DNA of 33,091 nt, taken from an uncultured Clostridia bacterium. GTDB lineage: Bacteria > Bacillota > Clostridia > Oscillospirales > Acutalibacteraceae. Position numbers and translations under genes: made by a program. The notes under the pieces are model-generated. The model saw nothing but the letters and a program-made list of their open reading frames with translations, was not told the DNA's origin and did no database searches. Numbering within the stretch: the first letter of the stretch is position 1; each line of letters begins with the position of its first letter. Where the stretch lies: assembly GCA_945926705.1 (NCBI GenBank), contig CAMEMA010000001.1:1-33091 (forward strand), written 5' to 3'. Shown here in pieces: positions 20,148 to 28,054 of this stretch.

Positions 20148-23100
20148 TTAATTTTCCTTTTCGATTATTTTTTCTAAAGCTTTTTTGTTTGTCATATTTG
20201 TAGGTATTTCATTAAATATCCCTTTTTCGTAGCAACATATTGGAAAGTAGCAGCACTTTTCACATGCAGTGTATCCTTTTGAAATCGGTCTTGCTGATAC
20301 TTTCCCGTTTTGTAGATTGCTCACCATTTCGGTTATTAGTTTTTGAGAGTAATCTGATATTAGACGCAGTTCTTTGGAATTTATTGTAGATTGTGATTTT
20401 TTTATTTCTCCATTTTTAATTTCAGCAGGTATAAAAATTCCTTTTCCGTCTTTTTCCATTCCCAAAATTGATTCGGTATCGTCTAAAATCAAGCCGTTCA
20501 TGCATAATTTTTCAAAAATTTTAATTGTTTCCGTTTGATGGGATTCTGTTTCTATTGCATCTATAACTGGTTTTAAAGCGGTAAAATATAACATACCTGC
20601 CGGAATTATTTTACCGTATTTTTTTTCACCGTTTTTTTTGAGAGCTGTTAAATATATAAGCATTTGCATGTTTAGACCGAATAAAATATCTGATAATTTA
20701 AATTCTTTTACACCTGTTTTGTAATCAACGATTCTTACATAAGTTCCTTTTTGAGATTTCATAATGTCCACACGGTCAATTTTACCTTCGATAGTAATAA
20801 CTGTTCCGTTTGGCATATTTATTTTTAACGGAGGTATTTCTCCTTTTTCTGCTATTTGCAGTTCAAGGTCTGAAAGCGCAAAAGAGCTTTGTTCAAACTC
20901 TTTTACAAAATATTTTGCGAGAAAAATAAGAGAGGAATTTAATTTTTTTATGCCGTGTAAAAATCTCTGAGGTTTACCATCTATTCCGCCCAAATTTTTT
21001 TCTATGTAATGTTTGGTAATTGATTCTATTTCAGATTTAATTTCTTCTTCCGGAGCGGATACAATTGCGTGATTTGGATATTTTTTAAATAATTTTTCTA
21101 AAGAATAGTGTATTATATTTCCGTATTCGATTGCTCCAAACGAAGCTTTTTTTAAAGGCTTTGCTTCCAATGCGTATTGGCAAAAATAACTAAATCGACA
21201 ATTATAATATTTTTCTATTTGAGATGCAGAAAGCTTAATTTGTTTTCCGAAAAAATTTTCTGCTCTTTCGGGATTTTCAAAATCAAGAGGTTTGTTTAAA
21301 AATATTTTTTCCAAAGCTTTATATTTTTCTCTATATGCTCCATCTTGTACGTAGTATTTTTTAAGTTCATTTGAAAATGACGAGTTTTTTCCAAAGTTTG
21401 TGGCCAGTATTTCAAAAGACGGTTTTTGTTTCCAAATTTTTTCTTTAGGACCTGAACTATAGCGGTTCATTATTTTTATTTTGGGGAAAATTTGTATTAT
21501 CTCTTTTATAATTTCAGACGGAATATTTCCTTTACCGGAAAAGTTTGATGAGGGCCAACTTACAAATAATTTTTCAGAAGCATTTGAAATTGCCATATAG
21601 GCGAGAAATCTTTCTTGAATTAAAAAAGTTTTTGCACTGTCTGTAATTTCAACTCCTAAAGAAGCCATTAGATTTATTTCAGATTCTGTGAATACAGCTA
21701 AAGAATCGGGAGTTTTGGGAAATTCCCCATTAACTGCACCTATTAAAAATACAGTTTTTACGCTTGAAAGACGTACTGTATCGGCTTGACCTATAACAAC
21801 ACTATCTAGACTTTGGGGAATAGTAGAAACTGTAACAGAACTCGAAACCGAACGAAGTACGTCTGCATATTTTTTGACTGAGATTTTTGTATTTTGAAAT
21901 ATCTCAGAAATTTTACTTAAAATATTCATTGCGCAATCCCAAGCGCCGGATTCACATTGAGCTTCTGTTGACTTATTGGCTTTAGCCAGGTTTTTACATA
22001 GATTTTTTAAATTTTCCGCTGCATTTACATCTAAAAGAAGTTCATAAATAGATTTTGATATTTTATCTGCGGTTGTACGTTTTGTCTTGTCGTAAAAATT
22101 TTTAAGAGGGTATATTATTTTCTTACGGAGTTCATTAATATTTTCGAGTTCGTTTTTGCTTTCTTCATTCCATGTTCTTTCAAATCCTTTGGGGTGCATT
22201 GTGAAGTCCTCAAACCACGAATTACCTGTTATATTCCAAAGAAAAATATAGTTTTCAACTATAGATATTTCTTCTGTTGATAAATTTACAAGACCTGATT
22301 TTAAAAATCTGAAAATTTCCTGTGAATCAAATTCCGAAGCAACGGTATCAAGCGCTGAAAATATCAGATTCATAATACTTTTATGAAAAATTGTATTGGG
22401 AGAATTTAGAAAATATGGTATATCGTATTTTTTAAAAGTGCTTTTTAAAATACTTTTGTAATTTTCCATATTTCTTACGATTACAGCAAAATCTTTAAAT
22501 CTGCAATTTTCAGTCATAACTGATTTTGCTATGTTTCTTGCTACATATTCACATTCTTCTGATTGGTTCAAAGCGTTGTATATTTCGATATTTTGAGGAA
22601 CTATTTTACTTGAAGATTTTCCAGGACAGAACATATTTTCTTGTAAAATTAAAAGGTCTTTTTTATTGAATTTTGAATTTTTTTGTAAAATTATAGGTTC
22701 GGAAATTTCAACAGAAGTTGAGCGTGCATCTTTTTGAATTTTTTTTATTGTTTGATAAACGTTGAAGAATAAATTTTTTTCATCGTAATTTTGAATAGAA
22801 GCATCAAAGCAAAATGCCATGTATATATTTTTAGCTTGACGGAGTATTATTTTTAATATGCTGCTTTGCTGGGGTGTAAAACTGCTGAACTCATCGAAGA
22901 ATATATCATATTCTTTAAAAATATTATTTTTTATTATAACATCTTCGAGTTTATTTAAGTTGTCTAAAGAGTCTTCAAATTTATTTTTTGTAAGTTCTTC
23001 ATAGGAATTGATTATTATTTTTATTTCGGATATTTTTTGTTTAAGAGTATCATTATAATCGAGCTGTTGAATTTTATTTAATTGTTCAAAATTTATTTTG

Positions 23101-23486
23101 TGAGTTTTGAACTCTTCCATTGTATGTAGCATTAGCTCTGCCACAGCCGAATCGGCATAATTTTTTTTATATAGACTCAAATTTTTTCGAGCTCGTTCCA
23201 GCGCACAGTTCATAGTTACTATTTTTGTTGTATCTTCCGGTGCAGGCAATGCCGGAATTTCTAATTTTGTAGACACAAAATCGTATAGCCTTGAAAAACT
23301 CAAAACTTCAGTTTTGTTAAAATCATTATTTCCCAAAATTTTAAGCATTTTTTTTTCGTTTTCGAAAGAGCTTTGTTCGGGAACGATAAGTATTGTTTTT
23401 TTACCTGATTTAATTTTATTTTTTATCATATCTGTTATGATTTTTGATTTTCCCGTTCCACATTTTCCAAGAATAAATTGAAGCAA
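20148..23486 (-). CDS. addB: ATP-dependent helicase/nuclease AddB
   Basis: 1112 aa. N-terminal GKCGTGKS. C-terminal nuclease (VDYKTG) bracketed by Fe-S cysteines (CRFSYFC ... CEKCCYFPIC). TTG start 8 nt after GGGAGG. Confidence 0.9.
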   Translation of the reverse strand: MLQFILGKCGTGKSKIITDMIKNKIKSGKKTILIVPEQSSFENEKKMLKILGNNDFNKTEVLSFSRLYDFVSTKLEIPALPAPEDTTKIVTMNCALERARKNLSLYKKNYADSAVAELMLHTMEEFKTHKINFEQLNKIQQLDYNDTLKQKISEIKIIINSYEELTKNKFEDSLDNLNKLEDVIIKNNIFKEYDIFFDEFSSFTPQQSSILKIILRQAKNIYMAFCFDASIQNYDEKNLFFNVYQTIKKIQKDARSTSVEISEPIILQKNSKFNKKDLLILQENMFCPGKSSSKIVPQNIEIYNALNQSEECEYVARNIAKSVMTENCRFKDFAVIVRNMENYKSILKSTFKKYDIPYFLNSPNTIFHKSIMNLIFSALDTVASEFDSQEIFRFLKSGLVNLSTEEISIVENYIFLWNITGNSWFEDFTMHPKGFERTWNEESKNELENINELRKKIIYPLKNFYDKTKRTTADKISKSIYELLLDVNAAENLKNLCKNLAKANKSTEAQCESGAWDCAMNILSKISEIFQNTKISVKKYADVLRSVSSSVTVSTIPQSLDSVVIGQADTVRLSSVKTVFLIGAVNGEFPKTPDSLAVFTESEINLMASLGVEITDSAKTFLIQERFLAYMAISNASEKLFVSWPSSNFSGKGNIPSEIIKEIIQIFPKIKIMNRYSSGPKEKIWKQKPSFEILATNFGKNSSFSNELKKYYVQDGAYREKYKALEKIFLNKPLDFENPERAENFFGKQIKLSASQIEKYYNCRFSYFCQYALEAKPLKKASFGAIEYGNIIHYSLEKLFKKYPNHAIVSAPEEEIKSEIESITKHYIEKNLGGIDGKPQRFLHGIKKLNSSLIFLAKYFVKEFEQSSFALSDLELQIAEKGEIPPLKINMPNGTVITIEGKIDRVDIMKSQKGTYVRIVDYKTGVKEFKLSDILFGLNMQMLIYLTALKKNGEKKYGKIIPAGMLYFTALKPVIDAIETESHQTETIKIFEKLCMNGLILDDTESILGMEKDGKGIFIPAEIKNGEIKKSQSTINSKELRLISDYSQKLITEMVSNLQNGKVSARPISKGYTACEKCCYFPICCYEKGIFNEIPTNMTNKKALEKIIEKEN

Positions 23487-23573
23487 TTTGTTGTCCTCCC
23501 GAAATTCGTATAAAAATTCAACATATATAATATATTAAAAATGATTGTTTATCAAAATTAACTTTATTTTTAG

Positions 23574-23602
23574 TTGACATATTTAATTATAAAGGATATA
23601 CT
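23574..23602 (+). promoter_or_regulatory. Sigma-A promoter of tRNA-Pro
   Basis: TTGACA-17 nt-TATACT, ending 19 nt upstream of the mature tRNA 5' end. Confidence 0.55.
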
Positions 23603-23621
23603 AAGATTGTATCGACTGTAT

Positions 23622-23697
23622 CGAGGTGTAGCTCAGATGGTAGAGTGCTTGGTTTGGGACCAAGATGCCGCAGGTTCGAGTCCTGTCACCTCGACCA
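23622..23697 (+). tRNA. tRNA-Pro (anticodon UGG), CCA encoded
   Basis: Acceptor stem CGAGGTG/CACCTCG, D-arm GCTCAGATGGTAGAGT, anticodon stem-loop CTTGG-TTTGGGA-CCAAG, T-arm GCAGGTTCGAGTCCTGT, then ACCA. 76 nt. Confidence 0.9.
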
Positions 23698-23727
23698 TTT
23701 TTTATTTTATATAAAAGGGTTTTGTTA

Positions 23728-24660
23728 ATGAAGTTTAAAAAATTGTTTTTAGTTTGTATTGTTGGTTGTATTTTAGGAGTTGGACTCTTATTTTTTTATC
23801 ATAAATTTGACGAAAATTGTCCTAAGCTGTCGATTATAGTCCCTGTTTACAATTCCGAAAAATATCTTTCGAAATGTATGGACAGTTTGATATCACAGAC
23901 TTTTGACGATACGGAAATAATATGCATTAATGATGGTTCCAAAGATGGTTCTTTAAACATTTTAAAAGAGTATGCTGCAAAAGATTCTCGTGTTAAAATA
24001 ATAGATCAGTCAAACCAAGGAGTTTCCGCTACCAGAAATAACGGTATATTCGCTGCGAGAGGGAAGTACATAACTTTTGTTGATTCTGATGATTGGCTGG
24101 ATGAATATGCATATAAATCGTGTATGGATGTAGTTCTTAAAGAGAATCCTGAAGTATTCTTTTTCGGATATAGAACGGATGCATCTTCCAAAGCTTCTCC
24201 TTGCATAGATGAATCTTCAATCAGATTTCATGGACGGGATAATATTATAAACGCTTACAAAGAAACACATCCTGCTGTTTGGGATAAGATATTTGACAGA
24301 AAGTTTATTCTGCGAAATGATTTGTTATTTAAAGAAGATATGAGTTATGCGGAAGACCATGTATTTAATTTGATGGCTTTTGCAAAAGCGGATAAAATCA
24401 TAGGCGTTCCGAATCAATTTTACTATTATCGTGAAGATAATCAATCCTCGTTAGTACATGTAATAAACAGTACGAAAAGATTGGAAAATGAAATCAAAGC
24501 AAATAAATATTTGATATCTTATTTCAGAGATTTGGGAATACATGATTTCGATTTGGAGTTTTCAAGACAGATGGGTTTAATTTTTAATCATATAAATAAT
24601 GAAGTTAACGATGAAACCTTGAAAGCTAAATATGCAAAAGAAGTATTCAAAGCTTGTTAG
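23728..24660 (+). CDS. Family 2 glycosyltransferase with an N-terminal TM anchor
   Basis: The motifs LSIIVPVYNSEKYL..C..SL..QT, INDGSKDGS and FVDSDDW are GT-A/GT2 signatures. I place the start at the ATG at 23728, because the track's 23665 start would overlap the tRNA. Confidence 0.8.
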   Translation: MKFKKLFLVCIVGCILGVGLLFFYHKFDENCPKLSIIVPVYNSEKYLSKCMDSLISQTFDDTEIICINDGSKDGSLNILKEYAAKDSRVKIIDQSNQGVSATRNNGIFAARGKYITFVDSDDWLDEYAYKSCMDVVLKENPEVFFFGYRTDASSKASPCIDESSIRFHGRDNIINAYKETHPAVWDKIFDRKFILRNDLLFKEDMSYAEDHVFNLMAFAKADKIIGVPNQFYYYREDNQSSLVHVINSTKRLENEIKANKYLISYFRDLGIHDFDLEFSRQMGLIFNHINNEVNDETLKAKYAKEVFKAC

Positions 24661-24688
24661 TTTTTAAAAACATAAAAATGCAGTAGAA

Positions 24689-24714
24689 AGCTCGCCAAGC
24701 GGCGAGCTGTTTTT
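24689..24714 (+). terminator. Intrinsic terminator of the GT2 gene
   Basis: agctcgcc-aagc-ggcgagct followed by GTTTTTG. Confidence 0.8.
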
Positions 24715-24783
24715 GAGTAAAAATATCAAAATAATTTCCAATTTATATATACGATAGGAAATGTTTATGTGTTGATTTGATTA

Positions 24784-25065
24784 TTAAAGTTCTTTAAGTT
24801 GCCATCCGCCTTGTGAGATAAGTTCTATGTTTTTAAGTTCTATGGATTCCCATGGCTCATATTCTGCCTGTTCAAAATTCCATAAAGCATCATATAAGTT
24901 TGGTGGACGTTTTTTATATGCTCCTTTTGCTTTTGGATGGTTGAGTATTATTTTTTTTGTTTTTTCAAAGTTTTCTTTTGGTATGAGACGTATATCGGTT
25001 TGATAACTTCCAACTTTAATGCTATAATATTTCTCATTTTCTTTGTAAAGTAATTTGTCGATCAA
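24784..25065 (-). CDS. Hypothetical 93-aa protein with a doubtful start (TTG, no Shine-Dalgarno)
   Basis: The open frame has no ATG anywhere. The only start candidates are TTG at 25065 and ATT at 25074. It lies 88 nt downstream of a consensus promoter (module A). I recognise no family. Confidence 0.4.
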   Translation of the reverse strand: MIDKLLYKENEKYYSIKVGSYQTDIRLIPKENFEKTKKIILNHPKAKGAYKKRPPNLYDALWNFEQAEYEPWESIELKNIELISQGGWQLKEL

Positions 25066-25132
25066 TGTTTTAATTTAGTTATTTTTGAAGTTAATTTGTA
25101 AATTTACAATTCTTATTTCTATTTTTTACATA

Positions 25133-25181
25133 GTATTTCAAAATACATTACTATTATATATATAATTATATATAATGTCAA
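25133..25181 (-). promoter_or_regulatory. Promoter-operator module A: TTGACA-17-TATAAT plus a near-palindrome GTATTTTGAAATAC at about +1
   Basis: On the minus strand the -35 is at 25181..25176, the -10 at 25158..25153 and the palindrome at 25146..25133. The wider module 25133..25209 is nearly identical to 25930..26008. Confidence 0.65.
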
Positions 25182-25288
25182 GTACTTTTTATAAAAATAA
25201 TATAAAATTAATTATTTAATAATTTTTTGCAAGAAAAACCATTTTATTATTTGTTTTTACATTGTTTAATATTTTTAAATATAATTAA

Positions 25289-25897
25289 TTAACGGTTAAA
25301 CCATGCTTTTGCTGTTCCGCGTAGGTCAATTCTTTTTAGTAACAGGTTTGTTAGAGGTTTTCCAAGTTTAAGTTTTTTGATTTTATCTTTAGTATCCCCA
25401 GTAATTTTTACATAATCGATATTTAAAAGATCTTTCATTGCGGTTTCTAGCTTTTGGAGATTGTATTTTAGTTCTTCTTTCATTAGTTCTTTTTTGTCTG
25501 CGTTTAGTTTTTTATTTTTGTCTATTATTTTTTCAATATCTATTTGAAAGGAAGAAATGCCGTTAATTGGACATGTGTATTCTCTTGAGAAAGGTTTACC
25601 TGATTTTGCTGTTACAATTTTCTTTATTCTATCAATTAACAGTGGTTTTAGGTCGTCGCTAATATTAAGTTGTTTTATGTTCTTTATAACTTCTGGACCA
25701 ACGGTGACATAATCGATGCCGCCGAAAAGAAGAGTTCGCACTTCGTCTATTATTTGGCTTTGATGTTCTTTTAGTTCATCTTTCGCTTGTTTTTTTTCTT
25801 TTTCGTCTAGTGTTTTGTCGTTTTGTATTTCGGTTAATACATCGTTTATAAATGAATTATTAAAAGTATTAAAATTATTAAATGGATTATTATTCAT
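25289..25897 (-). CDS. Hypothetical 202-aa protein with an Asn-rich N-terminus and two tandem ~66-aa repeats
   Basis: I take the ATG at 25897 (AGGA 10 nt upstream) over the track's GTG at 25906. The internal repeat is visible by eye: KK..K(D/E)ELK...LL..IDYV...G....IK.L.....L..LL..RI....TAK. I recognise no family. Confidence 0.6.
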   Translation of the reverse strand: MNNNPFNNFNTFNNSFINDVLTEIQNDKTLDEKEKKQAKDELKEHQSQIIDEVRTLLFGGIDYVTVGPEVIKNIKQLNISDDLKPLLIDRIKKIVTAKSGKPFSREYTCPINGISSFQIDIEKIIDKNKKLNADKKELMKEELKYNLQKLETAMKDLLNIDYVKITGDTKDKIKKLKLGKPLTNLLLKRIDLRGTAKAWFNR

Positions 25898-25929
25898 TAA
25901 AATCACATCCTGTTCTTAAAATTTTGTTT

Positions 25930-25980
25930 GTATTTCGAAATACATTACTATTATATATATATATATATATATAAAGTCAA
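25930..25980 (-). promoter_or_regulatory. Promoter-operator module B: TTGACT-19-TATAAT plus the perfect palindrome GTATTTCGAAATAC at about +1
   Basis: On the minus strand the -35 is at 25980..25975, the -10 at 25955..25950 and the palindrome at 25943..25930. The spacer is occupied by (TA)11. Confidence 0.6.
25952..25973. repeat. (TA)11 dinucleotide microsatellite inside the promoter spacer
   Basis: Counted directly: 11 uninterrupted TA units. The paralogous module A has an interrupted tract that is 2 nt shorter. Confidence 0.95.
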
Positions 25981-26028
25981 GTACTTTTTATAAAAATAAT
26001 ATAAAATTTTTAATTTTTAAAATAAAAT

Positions 26029-26056
26029 CACCCACATTTCAAAAGAAACATGGGTG
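26029..26056 (-). terminator. Intrinsic terminator of the 101-aa gene
   Basis: cacccaCAtttc-aaaa-gaaaCAtgggtg, followed on the minus strand by ATTTTATTTT. Confidence 0.55.
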
Positions 26057-26069
26057 GTAAATCTTTACT

Positions 26070-26375
26070 TTATTCTACTTCATCATCTAAATCATCAATA
26101 TATCCATCAAATTGGTCTAGAGTTTTCAGATAAGAATAAGCAGTGTTTACATTTAAAGACGAGTTGTAATCCGTATTGAAGTATTTAGTATGTATAAAAA
26201 TATTCATTGATTGATGATTTTCCAAAGCTGATTTTTCTTCAAGTCTTTTTGATTTTGCGGTGTAAGAGGCTAATTCTATAATGCTTGAATGATTTGTGAT
26301 ATTGTTTACGCTTACGATTCGATGATAATTTACAGTTATTCCATTTTCGAGTGTAATTGATTTTATTAATGCCAT
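26070..26375 (-). CDS. Hypothetical 101-aa protein with an acidic C-terminus
   Basis: I take the ATG at 26375 (strong RBS AAGGAGAAATTAAGA-ATG) over the track's 26426 start. Sequence: MALIKSITLENGITVNYHRIVSV...AYSYLKTLDQFDGYIDDLDDEVE. It resembles small proteins I associate with Firmicutes phage and prophage regions, but I cannot name a family. Confidence 0.6.
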   Translation of the reverse strand: MALIKSITLENGITVNYHRIVSVNNITNHSSIIELASYTAKSKRLEEKSALENHQSMNIFIHTKYFNTDYNSSLNVNTAYSYLKTLDQFDGYIDDLDDEVE

Positions 26376-26613
26376 TCTTAATTTCTCCTTTTTTAAAACA
26401 TTAAATATAGTATTGCTGTGCTTCAATTAAAATGTTACTTGCGTCTAAATTTAATTTTCACCTTCCTTAATAAAACAACTTTATTCAATTATCCGACGAA
26501 AAAGATTAAAATTTGCATTTAAAACGTAAATTATCAAAATAATTTTTAATAAAATAAAAGAGCATAAATACATTTGTCTTAATGCATCTGCTCTATAATT
26601 TTTTTATATGATT

Positions 26614-26949
26614 TTAAATATATTTCATAAGTTCATTGTAATTATGTTCTTTTGTCATTTTTGTGATTATGCACCAGTCAACTATTGACCATATTCCACA
26701 TCCACCAAAGGTCAAAAGTTTAACGACACCAAGTCCTATCTGACCAAGCATAAATCTGTCTATTCCTAAATACCCCAAAAATATTGAAATAATAAGTAAA
26801 GTTGTGGGGTCTTTGTAATTAAGACTTTGAATTACTGAATACTTATATTCAGGAATACTTTCAAGCTTTTCTCTAATGGTTGAAATCTTGTCTGTTGGGA
26901 AAAACTTACTGTTCATAGCAATAAATTGATCTATTTTTTGTGAATCCAT
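26614..26949 (-). CDS. TM2-domain membrane protein
   Basis: The block LLIISIFLGYLGIDRFMLGQIGLGVVKLLTFGGCGIWSIVDW is the TM2 pattern (G.G.DRFYLG...G..KL.T.GG.GIW...D). I take the ATG at 26949, 8 nt after GGAGG; the track's 26964 start is a TTG inside the RBS. Confidence 0.75.
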   Translation of the reverse strand: MDSQKIDQFIAMNSKFFPTDKISTIREKLESIPEYKYSVIQSLNYKDPTTLLIISIFLGYLGIDRFMLGQIGLGVVKLLTFGGCGIWSIVDWCIITKMTKEHNYNELMKYI

Positions 26950-26982
26950 GTCTAATTCCTCCAATTTTTTAGTTTTTGTTTT

Positions 26983-27011
26983 ATTTTATCATTTATAAAT
27001 AAAAAAGTCAA
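26983..27011 (-). promoter_or_regulatory. Sigma-A promoter of the TM2-domain gene
   Basis: The minus strand reads TTGACT-17 nt-TAAAAT. Confidence 0.5.
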
Positions 27012-27131
27012 CTATAATTTATAAAAACTAATAGAATAATAACAAATAGGGATAAAAATATTTTAAATGGTATATAAATTGAAAAGTAAAAAATAATACT
27101 TAAGATAATTTTATTAATTTAGGAGGAAAAA

Positions 27132-27596
27132 ATGATAAAATTGAAATCTCTTATTGTGAATCTCTTAATTACATTGGGTGGAGGGTCTTTAATTGCATTT
27201 TTAACTAAAGATTCTATGGATATTTACGTTAATATTCAGCAACCACCGCTTTCACCGCCGGGAGTAATTTTCCCTATAGTTTGGACTTTTTTATATTTTA
27301 TAATGGCAATTTCGGCATATATGATAACCGAATCGAAATCAACAATAAAAAAGAAAGCATTGACCATTTATGGAATACAATTATTCTTGAATTTTATTTG
27401 GCCTTTAATATTTTTCAATGCGAGAATGTTTTTACCTGCTTTCTTGATTTTAATAGCTCTTTGGATTATGGTTTTATGGATGATAGGAATATTTTACAGA
27501 ATAAATCCGCGCGCTGCTTTTCTTCAAATACCTTATGCATTGTGGTTAACTTTCGCAGCTTATCTAAATCTCGGAGTATGGGTTCTGAATATGTAA
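27132..27596 (+). CDS. tspO: TspO/MBR family tryptophan-rich sensory protein
   Basis: 154 aa, 5 TM segments. Motifs PPLSPPGVIFPIVWTFLYFIMAISAY, LFLNFIWPLIFF and PYALWLTFAAYLN. RBS AGGAGG. Confidence 0.85.
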   Translation: MIKLKSLIVNLLITLGGGSLIAFLTKDSMDIYVNIQQPPLSPPGVIFPIVWTFLYFIMAISAYMITESKSTIKKKALTIYGIQLFLNFIWPLIFFNARMFLPAFLILIALWIMVLWMIGIFYRINPRAAFLQIPYALWLTFAAYLNLGVWVLNM

Positions 27597-27601
27597 GATT
27601 T

Positions 27602-28054
27602 TTATTCCCATCCTATTTCTCCGAAATAAAAGTTATTAAAATAGTTTTCAATAGATGTTTTTCTGTCAGGTATTATATTTTCCGGAAGTTTTTTTATGTT
27701 AAACCATTTTAATTCGGAGCATTTTTCGGGTTCGGAGATTTTAGGCTCTCCTTGCCATTGAGATGTACAGAAATAAACATAACAATATACGTTTGAATCT
27801 ATATTGTTGTAGTAAAATCCGGCGAATTTCAGATATTTATCAGATATATTTATTCCTACTTCTTCTTTTGTTTCTCTAATGACTGCTTGCGAAAGCGATT
27901 CATTTTTTTCGGCATGACCACTTGATGCCGTGTCCCAAAAGCCATCTCTGAACCCTGTATTTTTTCTTTTCTGAAGAAGTATTTCGGTTTCATTTTTATG
28001 ATTTCTTGTAAGTATAAGAAACACAGCTGTAGGAGTTTTAAATCTTTCTTTCAT
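27602..28054 (-). CDS. NUDIX hydrolase
   Basis: Nudix box GHAEKNESLSQAVIRETKEEVGI. I prefer the ATG at 28054 (GAAAGGAA 10 nt upstream). The alternative start at 28081 has no RBS. Confidence 0.8.
   Translation of the reverse strand: MKERFKTPTAVFLILTRNHKNETEILLQKRKNTGFRDGFWDTASSGHAEKNESLSQAVIRETKEEVGINISDKYLKFAGFYYNNIDSNVYCYVYFCTSQWQGEPKISEPEKCSELKWFNIKKLPENIIPDRKTSIENYFNNFYFGEIGWE

What the first reader, a model, noticed from the sequence alone, without database searches (positions are those of the whole stretch)
25133..26008. Duplicated ~78-bp promoter plus palindromic-operator module driving two unrelated orphan genes
**Seen.** 25133..25209 and 25930..26008 are near-identical, differing mainly in the TA tract and a few substitutions.

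- Read on the minus strand, each gives an AT-rich upstream element, a -35 (TTGACA or TTGACT), TATAAT, six nucleotides, and then a 14-bp palindrome.
- The palindrome is GTATTTCGAAATAC, perfect in copy B, and GTATTTTGAAATAC with one mismatch in copy A. It sits at the predicted transcription start.
- Downstream the 5' UTRs and the genes (93 aa and 202 aa) are unrelated.

**Inference.** This is a portable regulatory cassette under a common dimeric repressor, binding across +1. No transcription factor gene is present in this window, so the regulator acts in trans. The half-site TTTCGAA is one mismatch from a Spo0A box (TGTCGAA), which may be coincidental.
Basis: partly seen in the sequence, partly recalled or inferred. 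Interest (0 to 1): 0.65.

Follow-up and report, generated by a model that had tools for sequence, protein, structure and literature searches.

The report
Multi-copy promoter cassette before orphan genes
The two near-identical 85-bp stretches are copies of a strong promoter ending in a small palindrome, a cassette that recurs many times in pig-gut metagenomes in front of different small, fast-evolving genes of unknown function.

Summary
Module A (25133-25217) and module B (25930-26016) are 80/87 identical. On the minus strand each reads: AT-rich upstream element, TTGACA/TTGACT, TA-tract spacer (17 vs 19 nt), TATAAT, AGTAAT, then GTATTT(T/C)GAAATAC.

The module is not a private duplication. In Logan contigs of pig-gut metagenomes its upstream/-35 part has 7-16 times the depth of the islet's single-copy contigs. 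Module B's leader, conserved up to the ATG, is followed by at least six different N-termini. One 1283-nt contig carries a module at both ends. In diverged copies the spacer and discriminator change, but TATAAT, six nucleotides and the palindrome stay.

The TA tract differs between strains at the same locus (15, 17 or 19 nt). The 202-aa gene shows 31 non-synonymous to 1 synonymous changes between alleles. The "93-aa gene" is a 101-aa gene that lost its ribosome-binding site and ATG here.

Best reading: a portable promoter cassette family, resembling the PeSL cassettes of T4-type phages, with a shared cis-site at +1. That site is most likely an operator; a weak 5' RNA hairpin is the main rival. 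No regulator was found.

The parts
25133..25217 (-). Module A. AT-rich upstream element 25182-25217, -35 TTGACA 25181-25176, 17-nt interrupted TA spacer, -10 TATAAT 25158-25153, discriminator AGTAAT 25152-25147, palindrome GTATTTTGAAATAC 25146-25133. Predicted start at G 25146.
   Evidence: It is the only 12/12 promoter match in 23000-28000.
25930..26016 (-). Module B. Upstream element 25981-26016, -35 TTGACT 25980-25975, 19-nt (TA)n spacer, -10 TATAAT 25955-25950, AGTAAT 25949-25944, perfect palindrome GTATTTCGAAATAC 25943-25930. Predicted start at G 25943.
25898..25929 (-). B-type leader with Shine-Dalgarno AGGA (25911-25908). In pig-gut metagenomes it is conserved up to the ATG in front of other ORFs.
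   Evidence: contigs match 25895-25937 with 0-2 mismatches, then diverge at the ATG. L030 carries a diverged copy.
25289..25897 (-). 202-aa orphan gene driven by module B. It evolves fast between strains.
   Evidence: searches found no homologue beyond near-identical copies and one 74-aa fragment. One search gives 31:1 and 19:2 non-synonymous to synonymous codon changes. In X1/L022 it is frameshifted.
25066..25132 (-). A-type leader, single-copy in the metagenomes. A private 33-bp deletion between 25068 and 25069 removed the Shine-Dalgarno, the ATG and 8 codons.
24784..25065 (-). 93-aa ORF, the 5'-truncated remnant of a 101-aa orphan gene (P0002) downstream of module A.
24689..24708 (.). GC-rich hairpin. 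It is a bidirectional terminator ending both the glycosyltransferase gene and the minus-strand islet transcripts.
26029..26056 (-). Terminator of the upstream 101-aa gene (26070-26375), directly in front of module B.
25218..25238 (-). Upstream extension of the A-type module (TTTTTCTTGCAAAAAATTATT...). In other copies it is the T-tail of a terminator hairpin ACCACC..GGTGGT. That hairpin is missing in the window.
   Evidence: loose ends behind 25238 in X1 and X6, and pieces reaching 25232-25238 in X1, X3 and X6

Best explanation
The two stretches are members of a multi-copy family of portable promoter cassettes carried by this uncultured pig-gut spore-forming Firmicute, or by mobile DNA living with it.

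**What a cassette contains**
- The tail of the preceding gene's terminator.
- A near-consensus AT-rich upstream element.
- A consensus sigma-A promoter whose -35/-10 spacer is a TA tract.
- Exactly six nucleotides after the -10, the 14-bp palindrome GTATTTCGAAATAC, which begins at the predicted transcription start.
- In the B type, a conserved leader with its ribosome-binding site running up to the ATG.

**How it is proposed to work**
- Cassettes stand in tandem in front of small, unrelated or rapidly diverging orphan genes, so each gene is its own transcription unit.
- Recombination between cassette copies swaps or deletes the genes between them. This explains why similarity begins and ends at cassette edges.
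- Slippage of the TA tract changes the spacer in 2-bp steps (15/17/19 nt) and so tunes or switches each promoter separately.
- The palindrome is a shared cis-site. Most likely it is the operator of a trans-encoded dimeric repressor that blocks initiation at all cassettes together.

**Shown:** the anatomy, the multi-copy and multi-context occurrence, the fixed -10-to-palindrome distance, the TA-length polymorphism and the fast evolution of the 202-aa cargo gene.

**Inferred:** promoter activity, the start site, the repressor, recombination as the shuffling mechanism, and that the copies lie in one genome.
For: **Anatomy:**

**Copy number.** At 93% likeness or better, the summed depth of Logan contigs over 25181-25208 is well above the islet's single-copy contigs in the same runs:
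- X1: 38 against 5.1-5.8
- X3: 92 against 5.5
- X5: 46 against 6.4-6.8
- X6: about 60 against 4.5

The signal comes from 31-47-nt unitigs of depth 10-28, as expected for a branching repeat.

**Different cargo.**
- Contigs match the B leader 25895-25937 with 0-2 mismatches, then diverge at the ATG into MSKKQSNEATT, MPKKSSKEDKE, MPETQNDKKLQ, MPKNNNTTSLR, MATRKQIIN and MIVNPIKNF.
- X10 has the leader at depth 23 but lacks the 202-aa gene.

**Arrays.**
- The window itself has module, gene, module, gene at 797-bp spacing.
- A 1283-nt X3 contig has a module at each end.
- Other copies sit directly behind a terminator hairpin.

**Constraint on the palindrome.** The full set of variants is:
- TTGACA/17/TATAAT/AGTAAT
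- TTGACT/19 or 15/TATAAT/AGTAAT
- TTGATT/17/TATAAT/TATGTT
- TTGACA/15/TATAAT/TGTATT
- TTGATA/17/TATAAT/GTACTT

All are followed by GTATTTCGAAATAC.

**Recombination.** L001 shares the stretch from the -35 of B to the 3' end of the glycosyltransferase gene at 99% identity. Its flanks and its upstream element differ, and the junction lies just upstream of the -35.

**TA-tract polymorphism at the same locus.** A is 17 nt (window, L001) or 15 nt (L020). B is 19 nt (window, L001) or 15 nt (L022).

**RNA hairpin is weak:** -1.3 and -1.8 kcal/mol.

**Published precedent.** PeSL cassettes are composed of an AT-rich region, a consensus promoter, a stem-loop (sometimes just downstream of the -10), and a Shine-Dalgarno plus start codon. 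About 50 occur per genome, before ORFans, and they mediate shuffling (PMC2839356; PMC4122927).
Against:
- Exact-pattern scans of GTDB representative genomes, JGI metagenomes and IMG/VR, and BLAST against phages and plasmids, found no further copy. The family is therefore narrow. The genome and metagenome patterns required AGTAAT and would have missed the diverged copies.
- The other cargo ORFs are known only by about ten codons. Some (MIVNPIKNF; L030) are diverged relatives of the 202-aa gene, so 'unrelated cargo' is proven only for the A/B pair.
- Spanning contigs were found by mapping to the leader plus palindrome, which biases towards copies that keep the palindrome.
- One copy (X10) has GTGTTTAAAATAC, which has one arm mismatch and a centre shorter by one base. 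That should hurt a dimeric repressor but keeps an RNA stem through a G-U pair.
- No regulator gene is in the window.
- The only RNA evidence is one low-depth metatranscriptome contig over 25737-25912. It stops short of the predicted start.
- L001 is a 3.6-kb metagenome contig with a ParA/glycosyltransferase hybrid ORF and could be a mis-assembly.
Confidence: 0.5

Rival explanations
1. The palindrome acts in the RNA. Transcripts start at its first G, and GUAUU-NNNN-AAUAC folds into a 5'-terminal hairpin that slows 5'-end-dependent decay or affects translation. No repressor is involved.
For: - The palindrome begins 7 nt after the -10, where initiation is expected, and that distance is invariant.
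- Window copy A's C-to-T change falls in the loop.
- The degenerate X10 copy GTGTTTAAAATAC keeps five pairs through a G-U pair with a 3-nt loop, although its DNA symmetry is broken.
- The A/B similarity ends at the 3' edge of the stem.
Against: - The hairpin is very weak: -1.3 and -1.8 kcal/mol, five A-U-rich pairs, folded in only about two thirds of the ensemble even in isolation.
- In the 54- and 87-nt leaders the total fold is no better than shuffled sequence, with z +0.26 and +0.43.
- No true compensatory double change was seen.
- Stabilising 5' stem-loops known to me (aprE, ermC, ompA leaders; from memory) are considerably stronger.
Confidence: 0.22
2. This is the conserved upstream region of one fast-evolving paralogous gene family. 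The B-type promoter and leader are kept because the genes behind them descend from one ancestor. Copy A arose when a piece of that region was recombined in front of the 101-aa gene. The palindrome has no dedicated regulator, and the promoter is simply strong and constitutive.
For: - The B leader is conserved up to the ATG.
- At least two other cargo starts (MIVNPIKNF, and L030's decayed copy) are diverged relatives of the 202-aa gene.
- The 202-aa gene diverges almost only by amino-acid changes, so paralogues could quickly look unrelated.
Against: - The upstream/-35 part is 2 to 16 times more abundant than the B leader in the same runs: X1 38 against 25, X3 92 against 4. So other leader types exist.
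- Copy A shows the promoter-palindrome unit joined to a different leader and an unrelated gene.
- The palindrome and its spacing are better kept than the neighbouring spacer and discriminator.
Confidence: 0.15
3. This is a local accident. A recent tandem duplication or insertion copied a promoter inside a decaying islet, with no function beyond that.
For: - Both downstream genes show decay in one strain or another. The window has the 33-bp start deletion, and X1/L022 has a frameshift in the 202-aa gene.
- Only two copies occur in the 33-kb window.
Against: - There is multi-copy depth, several upstream and downstream contexts, and diverged but architecture-preserving copies in ten independent runs.
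Confidence: 0.05
4. The palindrome is the core site of a site-specific recombinase that inserts or excises gene cassettes, in the manner of an integron.
For: - The A/B similarity ends at the palindrome edge.
- There are arrays of module-gene units.
Against: - Other breakpoints lie elsewhere: at the ATG for B-type copies, at the -35 in L001, and inside the terminator upstream of A.
- A 14-bp dyad is too short for known tyrosine or serine recombinase sites (from memory).
- No recombinase gene is in the window.
Confidence: 0.04

Closest known systems
PeSL (promoter-early stem-loop) mobile regulatory cassettes of T4-type phages (Arbiol et al. 2010, PMC2839356; Comeau et al. 2014, PMC4122927)
   Same: - Both are repeated intergenic cassettes made of an AT-rich upstream region and a consensus sigma-70-type promoter.
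- Both have a dyad or stem-loop that in one PeSL subclass lies just downstream of the -10.
- Both include the Shine-Dalgarno and start codon of the next gene.
- Both stand in arrays before small ORFan genes in variable regions.
- In both, similarity breakpoints at cassette edges imply gene shuffling by recombination between copies.
   Different: - There is no sequence relationship.
- The host is a Gram-positive spore former, and the copies seen in context are chromosomal, between a glycosyltransferase gene and TM2/TspO genes, not in a T4-like phage.
- The dyad here is a weak AT-rich 14-mer that cannot be a terminator. Termination is provided by a separate hairpin upstream.
- The spacer is a length-variable TA tract, which is not a PeSL feature.
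Global repressor regulons of mobile elements: IncP-1 KorA/KorB operators, and stoperators of Cluster A mycobacteriophages
   Same: A short perfect palindrome recurs at a fixed position in many promoters of one genetic element, allowing one repressor to control many transcription units.
   Different: - In those systems the repressor is known and encoded on the element. Here no regulator is known.
- It is not shown that the copies belong to one replicon.
- The comparison rests on my own knowledge of those systems and was not tested here.
Phase-variable promoters with a dinucleotide repeat in the -35/-10 spacer: Haemophilus influenzae hifA/hifB (TA)9-11 (reviewed in PMC2651432)
   Same: A TA tract fills the spacer, and its length changes in 2-bp steps between strains (15/17/19 nt). 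Only one length gives optimal spacing.
   Different: - Switching within a population and its effect on expression were not observed here.
- The tract is part of a multi-copy cassette, not a single fimbrial locus.
- Copy A's tract is interrupted, which would stabilise it.
5'-terminal stem-loops that stabilise mRNA (Bacillus subtilis aprE and ermC leaders, E. coli ompA leader; from memory)
   Same: The dyad starts at the predicted +1, so it would form the extreme 5' end of the transcript.
   Different: The predicted stability is only -1.3 to -1.8 kcal/mol, far weaker than those examples.

Membership tests
PeSL mobile regulatory cassettes (T4-type phages) | [quoted passage not shown] | tested here: met
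   TTGACA/17/TATAAT scores 12 of 12. The upstream tract is ATATTATTTTTATAAAAAGTAC.
PeSL mobile regulatory cassettes (T4-type phages) | Stable, usually G/C-rich stem-loop within the cassette that terminates upstream transcription | tested here: not met
   The dyad folds at only -1.3 and -1.8 kcal/mol and has no T-run. A separate terminator hairpin precedes module B and other A-type copies.
PeSL mobile regulatory cassettes (T4-type phages) | Tens of copies per genome, mostly before ORFans in hyperplastic regions | tested here: inconclusive
   Metagenome contigs show 7-16 times single-copy depth and at least six cargo N-termini.
PeSL mobile regulatory cassettes (T4-type phages) | Resident in a T4-type phage genome | tested here: not met
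   The flanks are chromosomal: addB, tRNA-Pro, a glycosyltransferase gene, TspO, NUDIX. There is no hit in IMG/VR or INPHARED phages by DNA or protein.
PeSL mobile regulatory cassettes (T4-type phages) | Recombination between copies creates indels and replacements | tested here: inconclusive
   L001 has a junction next to the -35. The cassette junction upstream of A lies inside a terminator. L001 may be a mis-assembly.
Repressor operator shared by a regulon | Dyad-symmetric site at a fixed position relative to the core promoter | tested here: met
   The 14-bp dyad lies exactly 6 nt after TATAAT in all nine sequenced or reconstructed copies.
Repressor operator shared by a regulon | Site recurs at several promoters of different genes | tested here: met
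   Window copies A and B drive unrelated genes. Further copies occur before other ORFs in metagenomes. Whether they share one genome is not shown.
Repressor operator shared by a regulon | A cognate DNA-binding protein exists and binding changes expression | not testable with these tools
   No transcription factor is in the window. The organism is uncultured.
Phase-variable promoter with a repeat in the spacer | Simple repeat between -35 and -10 whose length differs between strains in whole repeat units | tested here: met
   B is 19 nt (window, L001) or 15 nt (L022). A is 17 nt (window, L001) or 15 nt (L020). All tracts are shorter than the assembler's 31-mer.
Phase-variable promoter with a repeat in the spacer | Reversible switching within a population, with an expression effect | not testable with these tools
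   The read-laying tool refuses the TA tract. Only contigs were available, not raw reads.
Spo0A box (TGNCGAA) | Match to the 7-mer, including the conserved G at position 2 | tested here: not met
   B reads TTTCGAA and A reads TTTTGAA. The consensus is quoted from memory.
5'-terminal stabilising stem-loop | Stable hairpin at the first nucleotides of the transcript | tested here: inconclusive
   The position fits. Stability is marginal at -1.3 and -1.8 kcal/mol. The 5' end is not mapped.

The most novel reading that the evidence does not exclude
A bacterial counterpart of the phage PeSL system. A gut Firmicute, or a plasmid or phage it carries, keeps a dozen or more interchangeable expression cassettes. 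Each has a repressor-controlled consensus promoter and its own slippage-prone TA spacer. Together they drive a shuffling set of small orphan genes under strong diversifying selection. This would amount to a contingency-gene 'card deck' for an arms race with phages or competitors: switched gene by gene through TA slippage, and as a block through the shared operator.
Probability: 0.2. Interest if true: 0.75.

Novelty: new variant of a known kind. Interest (0 to 1): 0.5.

Why it matters
Repeated promoter cassettes that move orphan genes around have been worked out only for T4-type phages, and shared operators mainly for plasmids and temperate phages.

A similar arrangement in an uncultured gut spore former would point to a general way in which bacteria or their mobile DNA keep and re-deal small accessory genes. 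Here it comes with strain-variable TA spacers and a cargo gene whose alleles differ almost only by amino-acid changes.

It also gives a practical handle. The conserved cassette can be used as a probe to fish out a whole set of rapidly evolving unknown genes from gut metagenomes. The palindrome can serve as bait for the unknown regulator.

Tried and rejected

**Searches that found nothing relevant**
- Exact-pattern scans with AGTAATGTATTTY(R)GAAATAC in GTDB representative genomes and JGI metagenomes gave only chance hits without promoter context. In hindsight the AGTAAT anchor was too strict, since diverged copies have other discriminators.
- IMG/VR was scanned with four patterns. There were 0 hits except three unrelated phage promoters that share only the upstream-element/-35 20-mer.
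- BLAST of the module against phages and plasmids found nothing.
- Rfam gave no credible family.
- The full-text search for ATTTCGAAAT returned only primers and unrelated sequences.

**Function of the cargo proteins**
- Pfam, PHROGs, PADLOC, PDB sequences, tblastn against phages, an exhaustive HMMER search and two AlphaFold models (pLDDT 60 and 39) gave nothing usable.
- The models were too poor to run fold search.

**Other leads**
- Relatives of the neighbouring glycosyltransferase at 84%, 75% and 54% identity carry different downstream genes and no module.
- I considered matches to CodY, cre/CcpA, TnrA, CRP/FNR and Spo0A sites from memory. None fits the half-site spacing.
- Two one-mismatch palindromes at 21407 and 21889 lie inside addB without promoter context and are treated as chance.
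Full report
**1. The observation**

Reading 24300-26700 on the minus strand, the repeat finder and pairwise alignments all confirm two near-identical stretches, 25133-25217 (A) and 25930-26016 (B). They are 80 of 87 columns identical.

Each stretch has the following parts:
- an AT-rich tract, ...ATATTATTTTTATAAAAAGTAC
- a -35 hexamer: TTGACA in A (25181-25176), TTGACT in B (25980-25975)
- a TA-tract spacer: 17 nt and interrupted in A, 19 nt and almost pure (TA)n in B
- TATAAT: 25158-25153 in A, 25955-25950 in B
- AGTAAT
- a 14-bp dyad: GTATTTTGAAATAC in A (25146-25133), GTATTTCGAAATAC in B (25943-25930)

Copy A is the only 12/12 promoter match in the 5 kb scanned. The dyad pattern and the upstream 18-mer occur far more often than in shuffled sequence. 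Similarity stops immediately after the dyad. From memory of the Estrem/Gourse UP-element consensus, the tract at -57 to -47 (ATATTATTTTT) matches the distal subsite fully. I did not test this.

**2. The setting**

The window is a whole 33-kb contig of a low-GC (32%) spore-forming Firmicute from pig gut. It carries SipL, a SCIFF system, cwlD, addAB and type III glutamine synthetase.

The modules lie in an islet of minus-strand small genes between a glycosyltransferase gene (which follows tRNA-Pro) and a TM2/TspO/NUDIX group. The order on the minus strand is:
- the 101-aa gene at 26070-26375 and its terminator at 26056-26029
- module B, its leader with AGGA, and the 202-aa gene
- no terminator
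- module A and a 67-nt leader
- the 93-aa ORF
- the bidirectional terminator at 24689-24708

No transcription factor is recognisable anywhere in the window.

**3. The downstream genes**

Both genes are true orphans. A search of 5.8 billion proteins and an exhaustive HMMER search returned only themselves, a 95%-identical 101-aa form, an N-terminal fragment and one 74-aa weak hit.

*The 93-aa ORF is damaged.*
- Strain contigs L020, X1 and X3 have 33 more bp that carry GGAGAG, the ATG and eight codons.
- The window and L001 share the deletion.

*The 202-aa gene is frameshifted in X1/L022*.

*Its intact alleles differ almost only by amino-acid changes.*
- The X5 allele differs from the window by 31 non-synonymous and 1 synonymous codon changes.
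- The X2 allele differs by 19 and 2.
- Neither allele has stop codons.

That is well beyond the roughly 4:1 ratio expected without selection.

*The neighbouring gene is stable.* The glycosyltransferase gene is identical over 834 nt between the window and L020, while the adjacent orphan gene has 6 changes in 282 nt.

Structure predictions were too poor to use.

**4. Is the module found elsewhere?**

Exact-pattern scans of GTDB representatives, JGI metagenomes and IMG/VR, and BLAST against phage and plasmid collections, found nothing related. The AGTAAT-anchored pattern would have missed diverged copies.

(a) *Copy number of the upstream/-35 part.* At 93% likeness or better, the summed depth over 25181-25208 exceeds the single-copy contigs of the same islet:

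| Run | Depth over 25181-25208 | Single-copy contigs |
|---|---|---|
| X1 | 38 | 5.1-5.8 |
| X3 | 92 | 5.5 |
| X5 | 46 | 6.4-6.8 |
| X6 | about 60 | 4.5 |

The signal comes from many 31-47-nt unitigs of depth 10-28.

(b) *The two leaders behave differently.*
- The A-type leader is single-copy.
- The B-type leader (25895-25937) is multi-copy: depth 25 in X1, and 23 in X10, where the 202-aa gene is absent.
- Contigs matching the B leader with 0-2 mismatches diverge exactly at the ATG into MSKKQSNEATT, MPKKSSKEDKE, MPETQNDKKLQ, MPKNNNTTSLR, MATRKQIIN and MIVNPIKNF.
- MIVNPIKNF and the decayed contig L030 are diverged relatives of the 202-aa gene. The others cannot be judged from ten codons.

(c) *Upstream contexts differ.* Several A-type copies sit directly behind a terminator hairpin, ACCACC-N6-GGTGGT. 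Its T-tail is the TTTTTCTTGC that the window retains at 25229-25238.

(d) *Arrays exist.* A 1283-nt X3 contig begins and ends in a module.

(e) *Core variants.* Contigs spanning a whole module gave diverged cores:
- TTGATT/17/TATAAT/TATGTT (X3)
- TTGACA/15/TATAAT/TGTATT (X4)
- TTGATA/17/TATAAT/GTACTT, with a non-TA spacer (X16)
- TTGACT/16/TATAAT/GTTACT (X10)

In all of them the dyad starts six nucleotides after TATAAT. It is intact in X3, X4 and X16. In X10 it is degenerate (GTGTTTAAAATAC).

Caveats:
- Depths are sums over a metagenome.
- Short AT-rich matches at 80-88% likeness are partly spurious, so I relied on pieces with two or fewer mismatches.
- Spanning contigs were selected by similarity to the leader plus dyad.

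**5. L001**

An NCBI metagenome contig (3589 nt) holds the same two genes with the same private features: the 33-bp deletion, spacers of 19 and 17 nt, and the T in A's dyad. It is 99% identical from the -35 of B to 176 nt inside the glycosyltransferase gene.

Its flanks are different:
- On one side there is a QueH-GNAT gene with its terminator.
- On the other there is a ParA N-terminus fused in frame to the glycosyltransferase C-terminus, followed by a Fic gene.

Upstream of the -35 its sequence is only loosely similar to the module. Either this is a recombinant with the junction at the cassette, in a plasmid-like setting, or it is a mis-assembly.

**6. TA tract**

At the same locus the spacer is 19 nt (window, L001) or 15 nt (L022) for B, and 17 nt (window, L001) or 15 nt (L020) for A. 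All tracts are shorter than the assembler's 31-mer, so the lengths should be reliable.

This is the pattern described for the (TA)9-11 hifA/hifB promoter of Haemophilus influenzae (PMC2651432). L020's copy A also has the perfect dyad, so the window's T is a recent CG-to-TG change.

**7. What the dyad does**

As RNA it gives only a five-pair A-U-rich hairpin of -1.3 (A) or -1.8 (B) kcal/mol, and the whole leaders fold no better than shuffles. Rfam has nothing.

The fixed distance from the -10 and the better conservation than the spacer and discriminator argue for function at or near +1.
- A dimeric repressor that occludes initiation is the simplest reading. It fits the precedent of shared operators on mobile elements.
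- The X10 variant, which has a G-U-compatible arm change and a centre one base shorter, is the single observation that favours an RNA stem.

I put the operator at about 0.4-0.5, the RNA hairpin at about 0.2, and no specific role at about 0.2.

Known sites I recalled (CodY, cre, TnrA, CRP/FNR, Spo0A) do not fit the half-site spacing. The Spo0A resemblance fails at the conserved G.

**8. Comparison with known systems**

The closest described system is the PeSL cassette of T4-type phages. It has:
- an AT-rich region, a consensus promoter and a stem-loop, in one subclass just downstream of the -10
- the Shine-Dalgarno and start codon of the next gene
- about 50 copies per genome, before ORFans
- a role in mediating shuffling (PMC2839356; PMC4122927)

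The present module works like that in layout and apparent evolutionary behaviour, but it is not a member:
- It has no sequence relationship to PeSLs.
- It is not in a phage.
- Its dyad is no terminator.

It adds a slippage-prone spacer.

**9. Verdict**

The 'portable cassette' idea is supported and extended. The repressor remains an inference. This is a new variant of a known kind and moderately interesting. The main gap is that the copies have not been placed on one genome.

Noticed in passing
window 25289-25897: Alleles of the 202-aa orphan gene in other pig-gut runs differ from the window almost only by amino-acid changes: 31 non-synonymous to 1 synonymous codons in X5, and 19 to 2 in X2. 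One in-frame 3-nt deletion is present and there are no stop codons. This is a signature of diversifying selection.
   Followed up: partly
window 25068/25069: A private 33-bp deletion, shared with L001, removes the Shine-Dalgarno, the ATG and eight codons of the 101-aa gene behind module A. Strains in X1 and X3 are intact.
   Followed up: yes
window 25790 (A8 run in the 202-aa gene); L022 1198-1787: In X1/L022 one A of a homopolymer run is missing, splitting the 202-aa gene into 41-aa and 145-aa ORFs. This could be decay or a second slippage switch.
   Followed up: no
L001 2417-2800: A 127-aa ORF fuses 72 residues of a ParA-type ATPase N-terminus in frame to the last 55 residues of the window's glycosyltransferase, next to a Fic-domain gene. 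It is either a real recombinant on plasmid-like DNA or an assembly chimera.
   Followed up: partly
window 23827-24660 versus 24784-25184: Between the window and strain contig L020 the glycosyltransferase gene is identical over 834 nt. The adjoining orphan gene and module carry 6 substitutions, a 33-bp indel, a TA-length change and a dyad change. Divergence steps up sharply at the islet border.
   Followed up: partly
L023 3184-3834: A relative with an 84%-identical glycosyltransferase has the same bidirectional terminator but a different 75-aa gene and no module behind it. Upstream it has RusA and a ParE/Phd pair. The site is therefore a variable spot across related lineages.
   Followed up: partly
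L027 and L029 (IMG/VR), minus strand: Two related viral contigs share the exact 20-mer TTTTTATAAAAAGTACTTGA as the upstream element plus -35 of a promoter. The -10 of that promoter is embedded in a different dyad (GGTTATAATGAATATATAACC). L028, which is unrelated, has the same 20-mer before another promoter.
   Followed up: no
window 21407-21420 and 21889-21902: Two one-mismatch copies of the dyad lie inside the addB coding region, without promoter context. They are probably chance.
   Followed up: no
window 25737-25912: One metatranscriptome run labelled biofilm (X22) holds a 176-nt contig, 4 mismatches, depth 2, covering the start of the 202-aa gene and 15 nt of its leader. This is weak evidence that the gene is transcribed.
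   Followed up: partly
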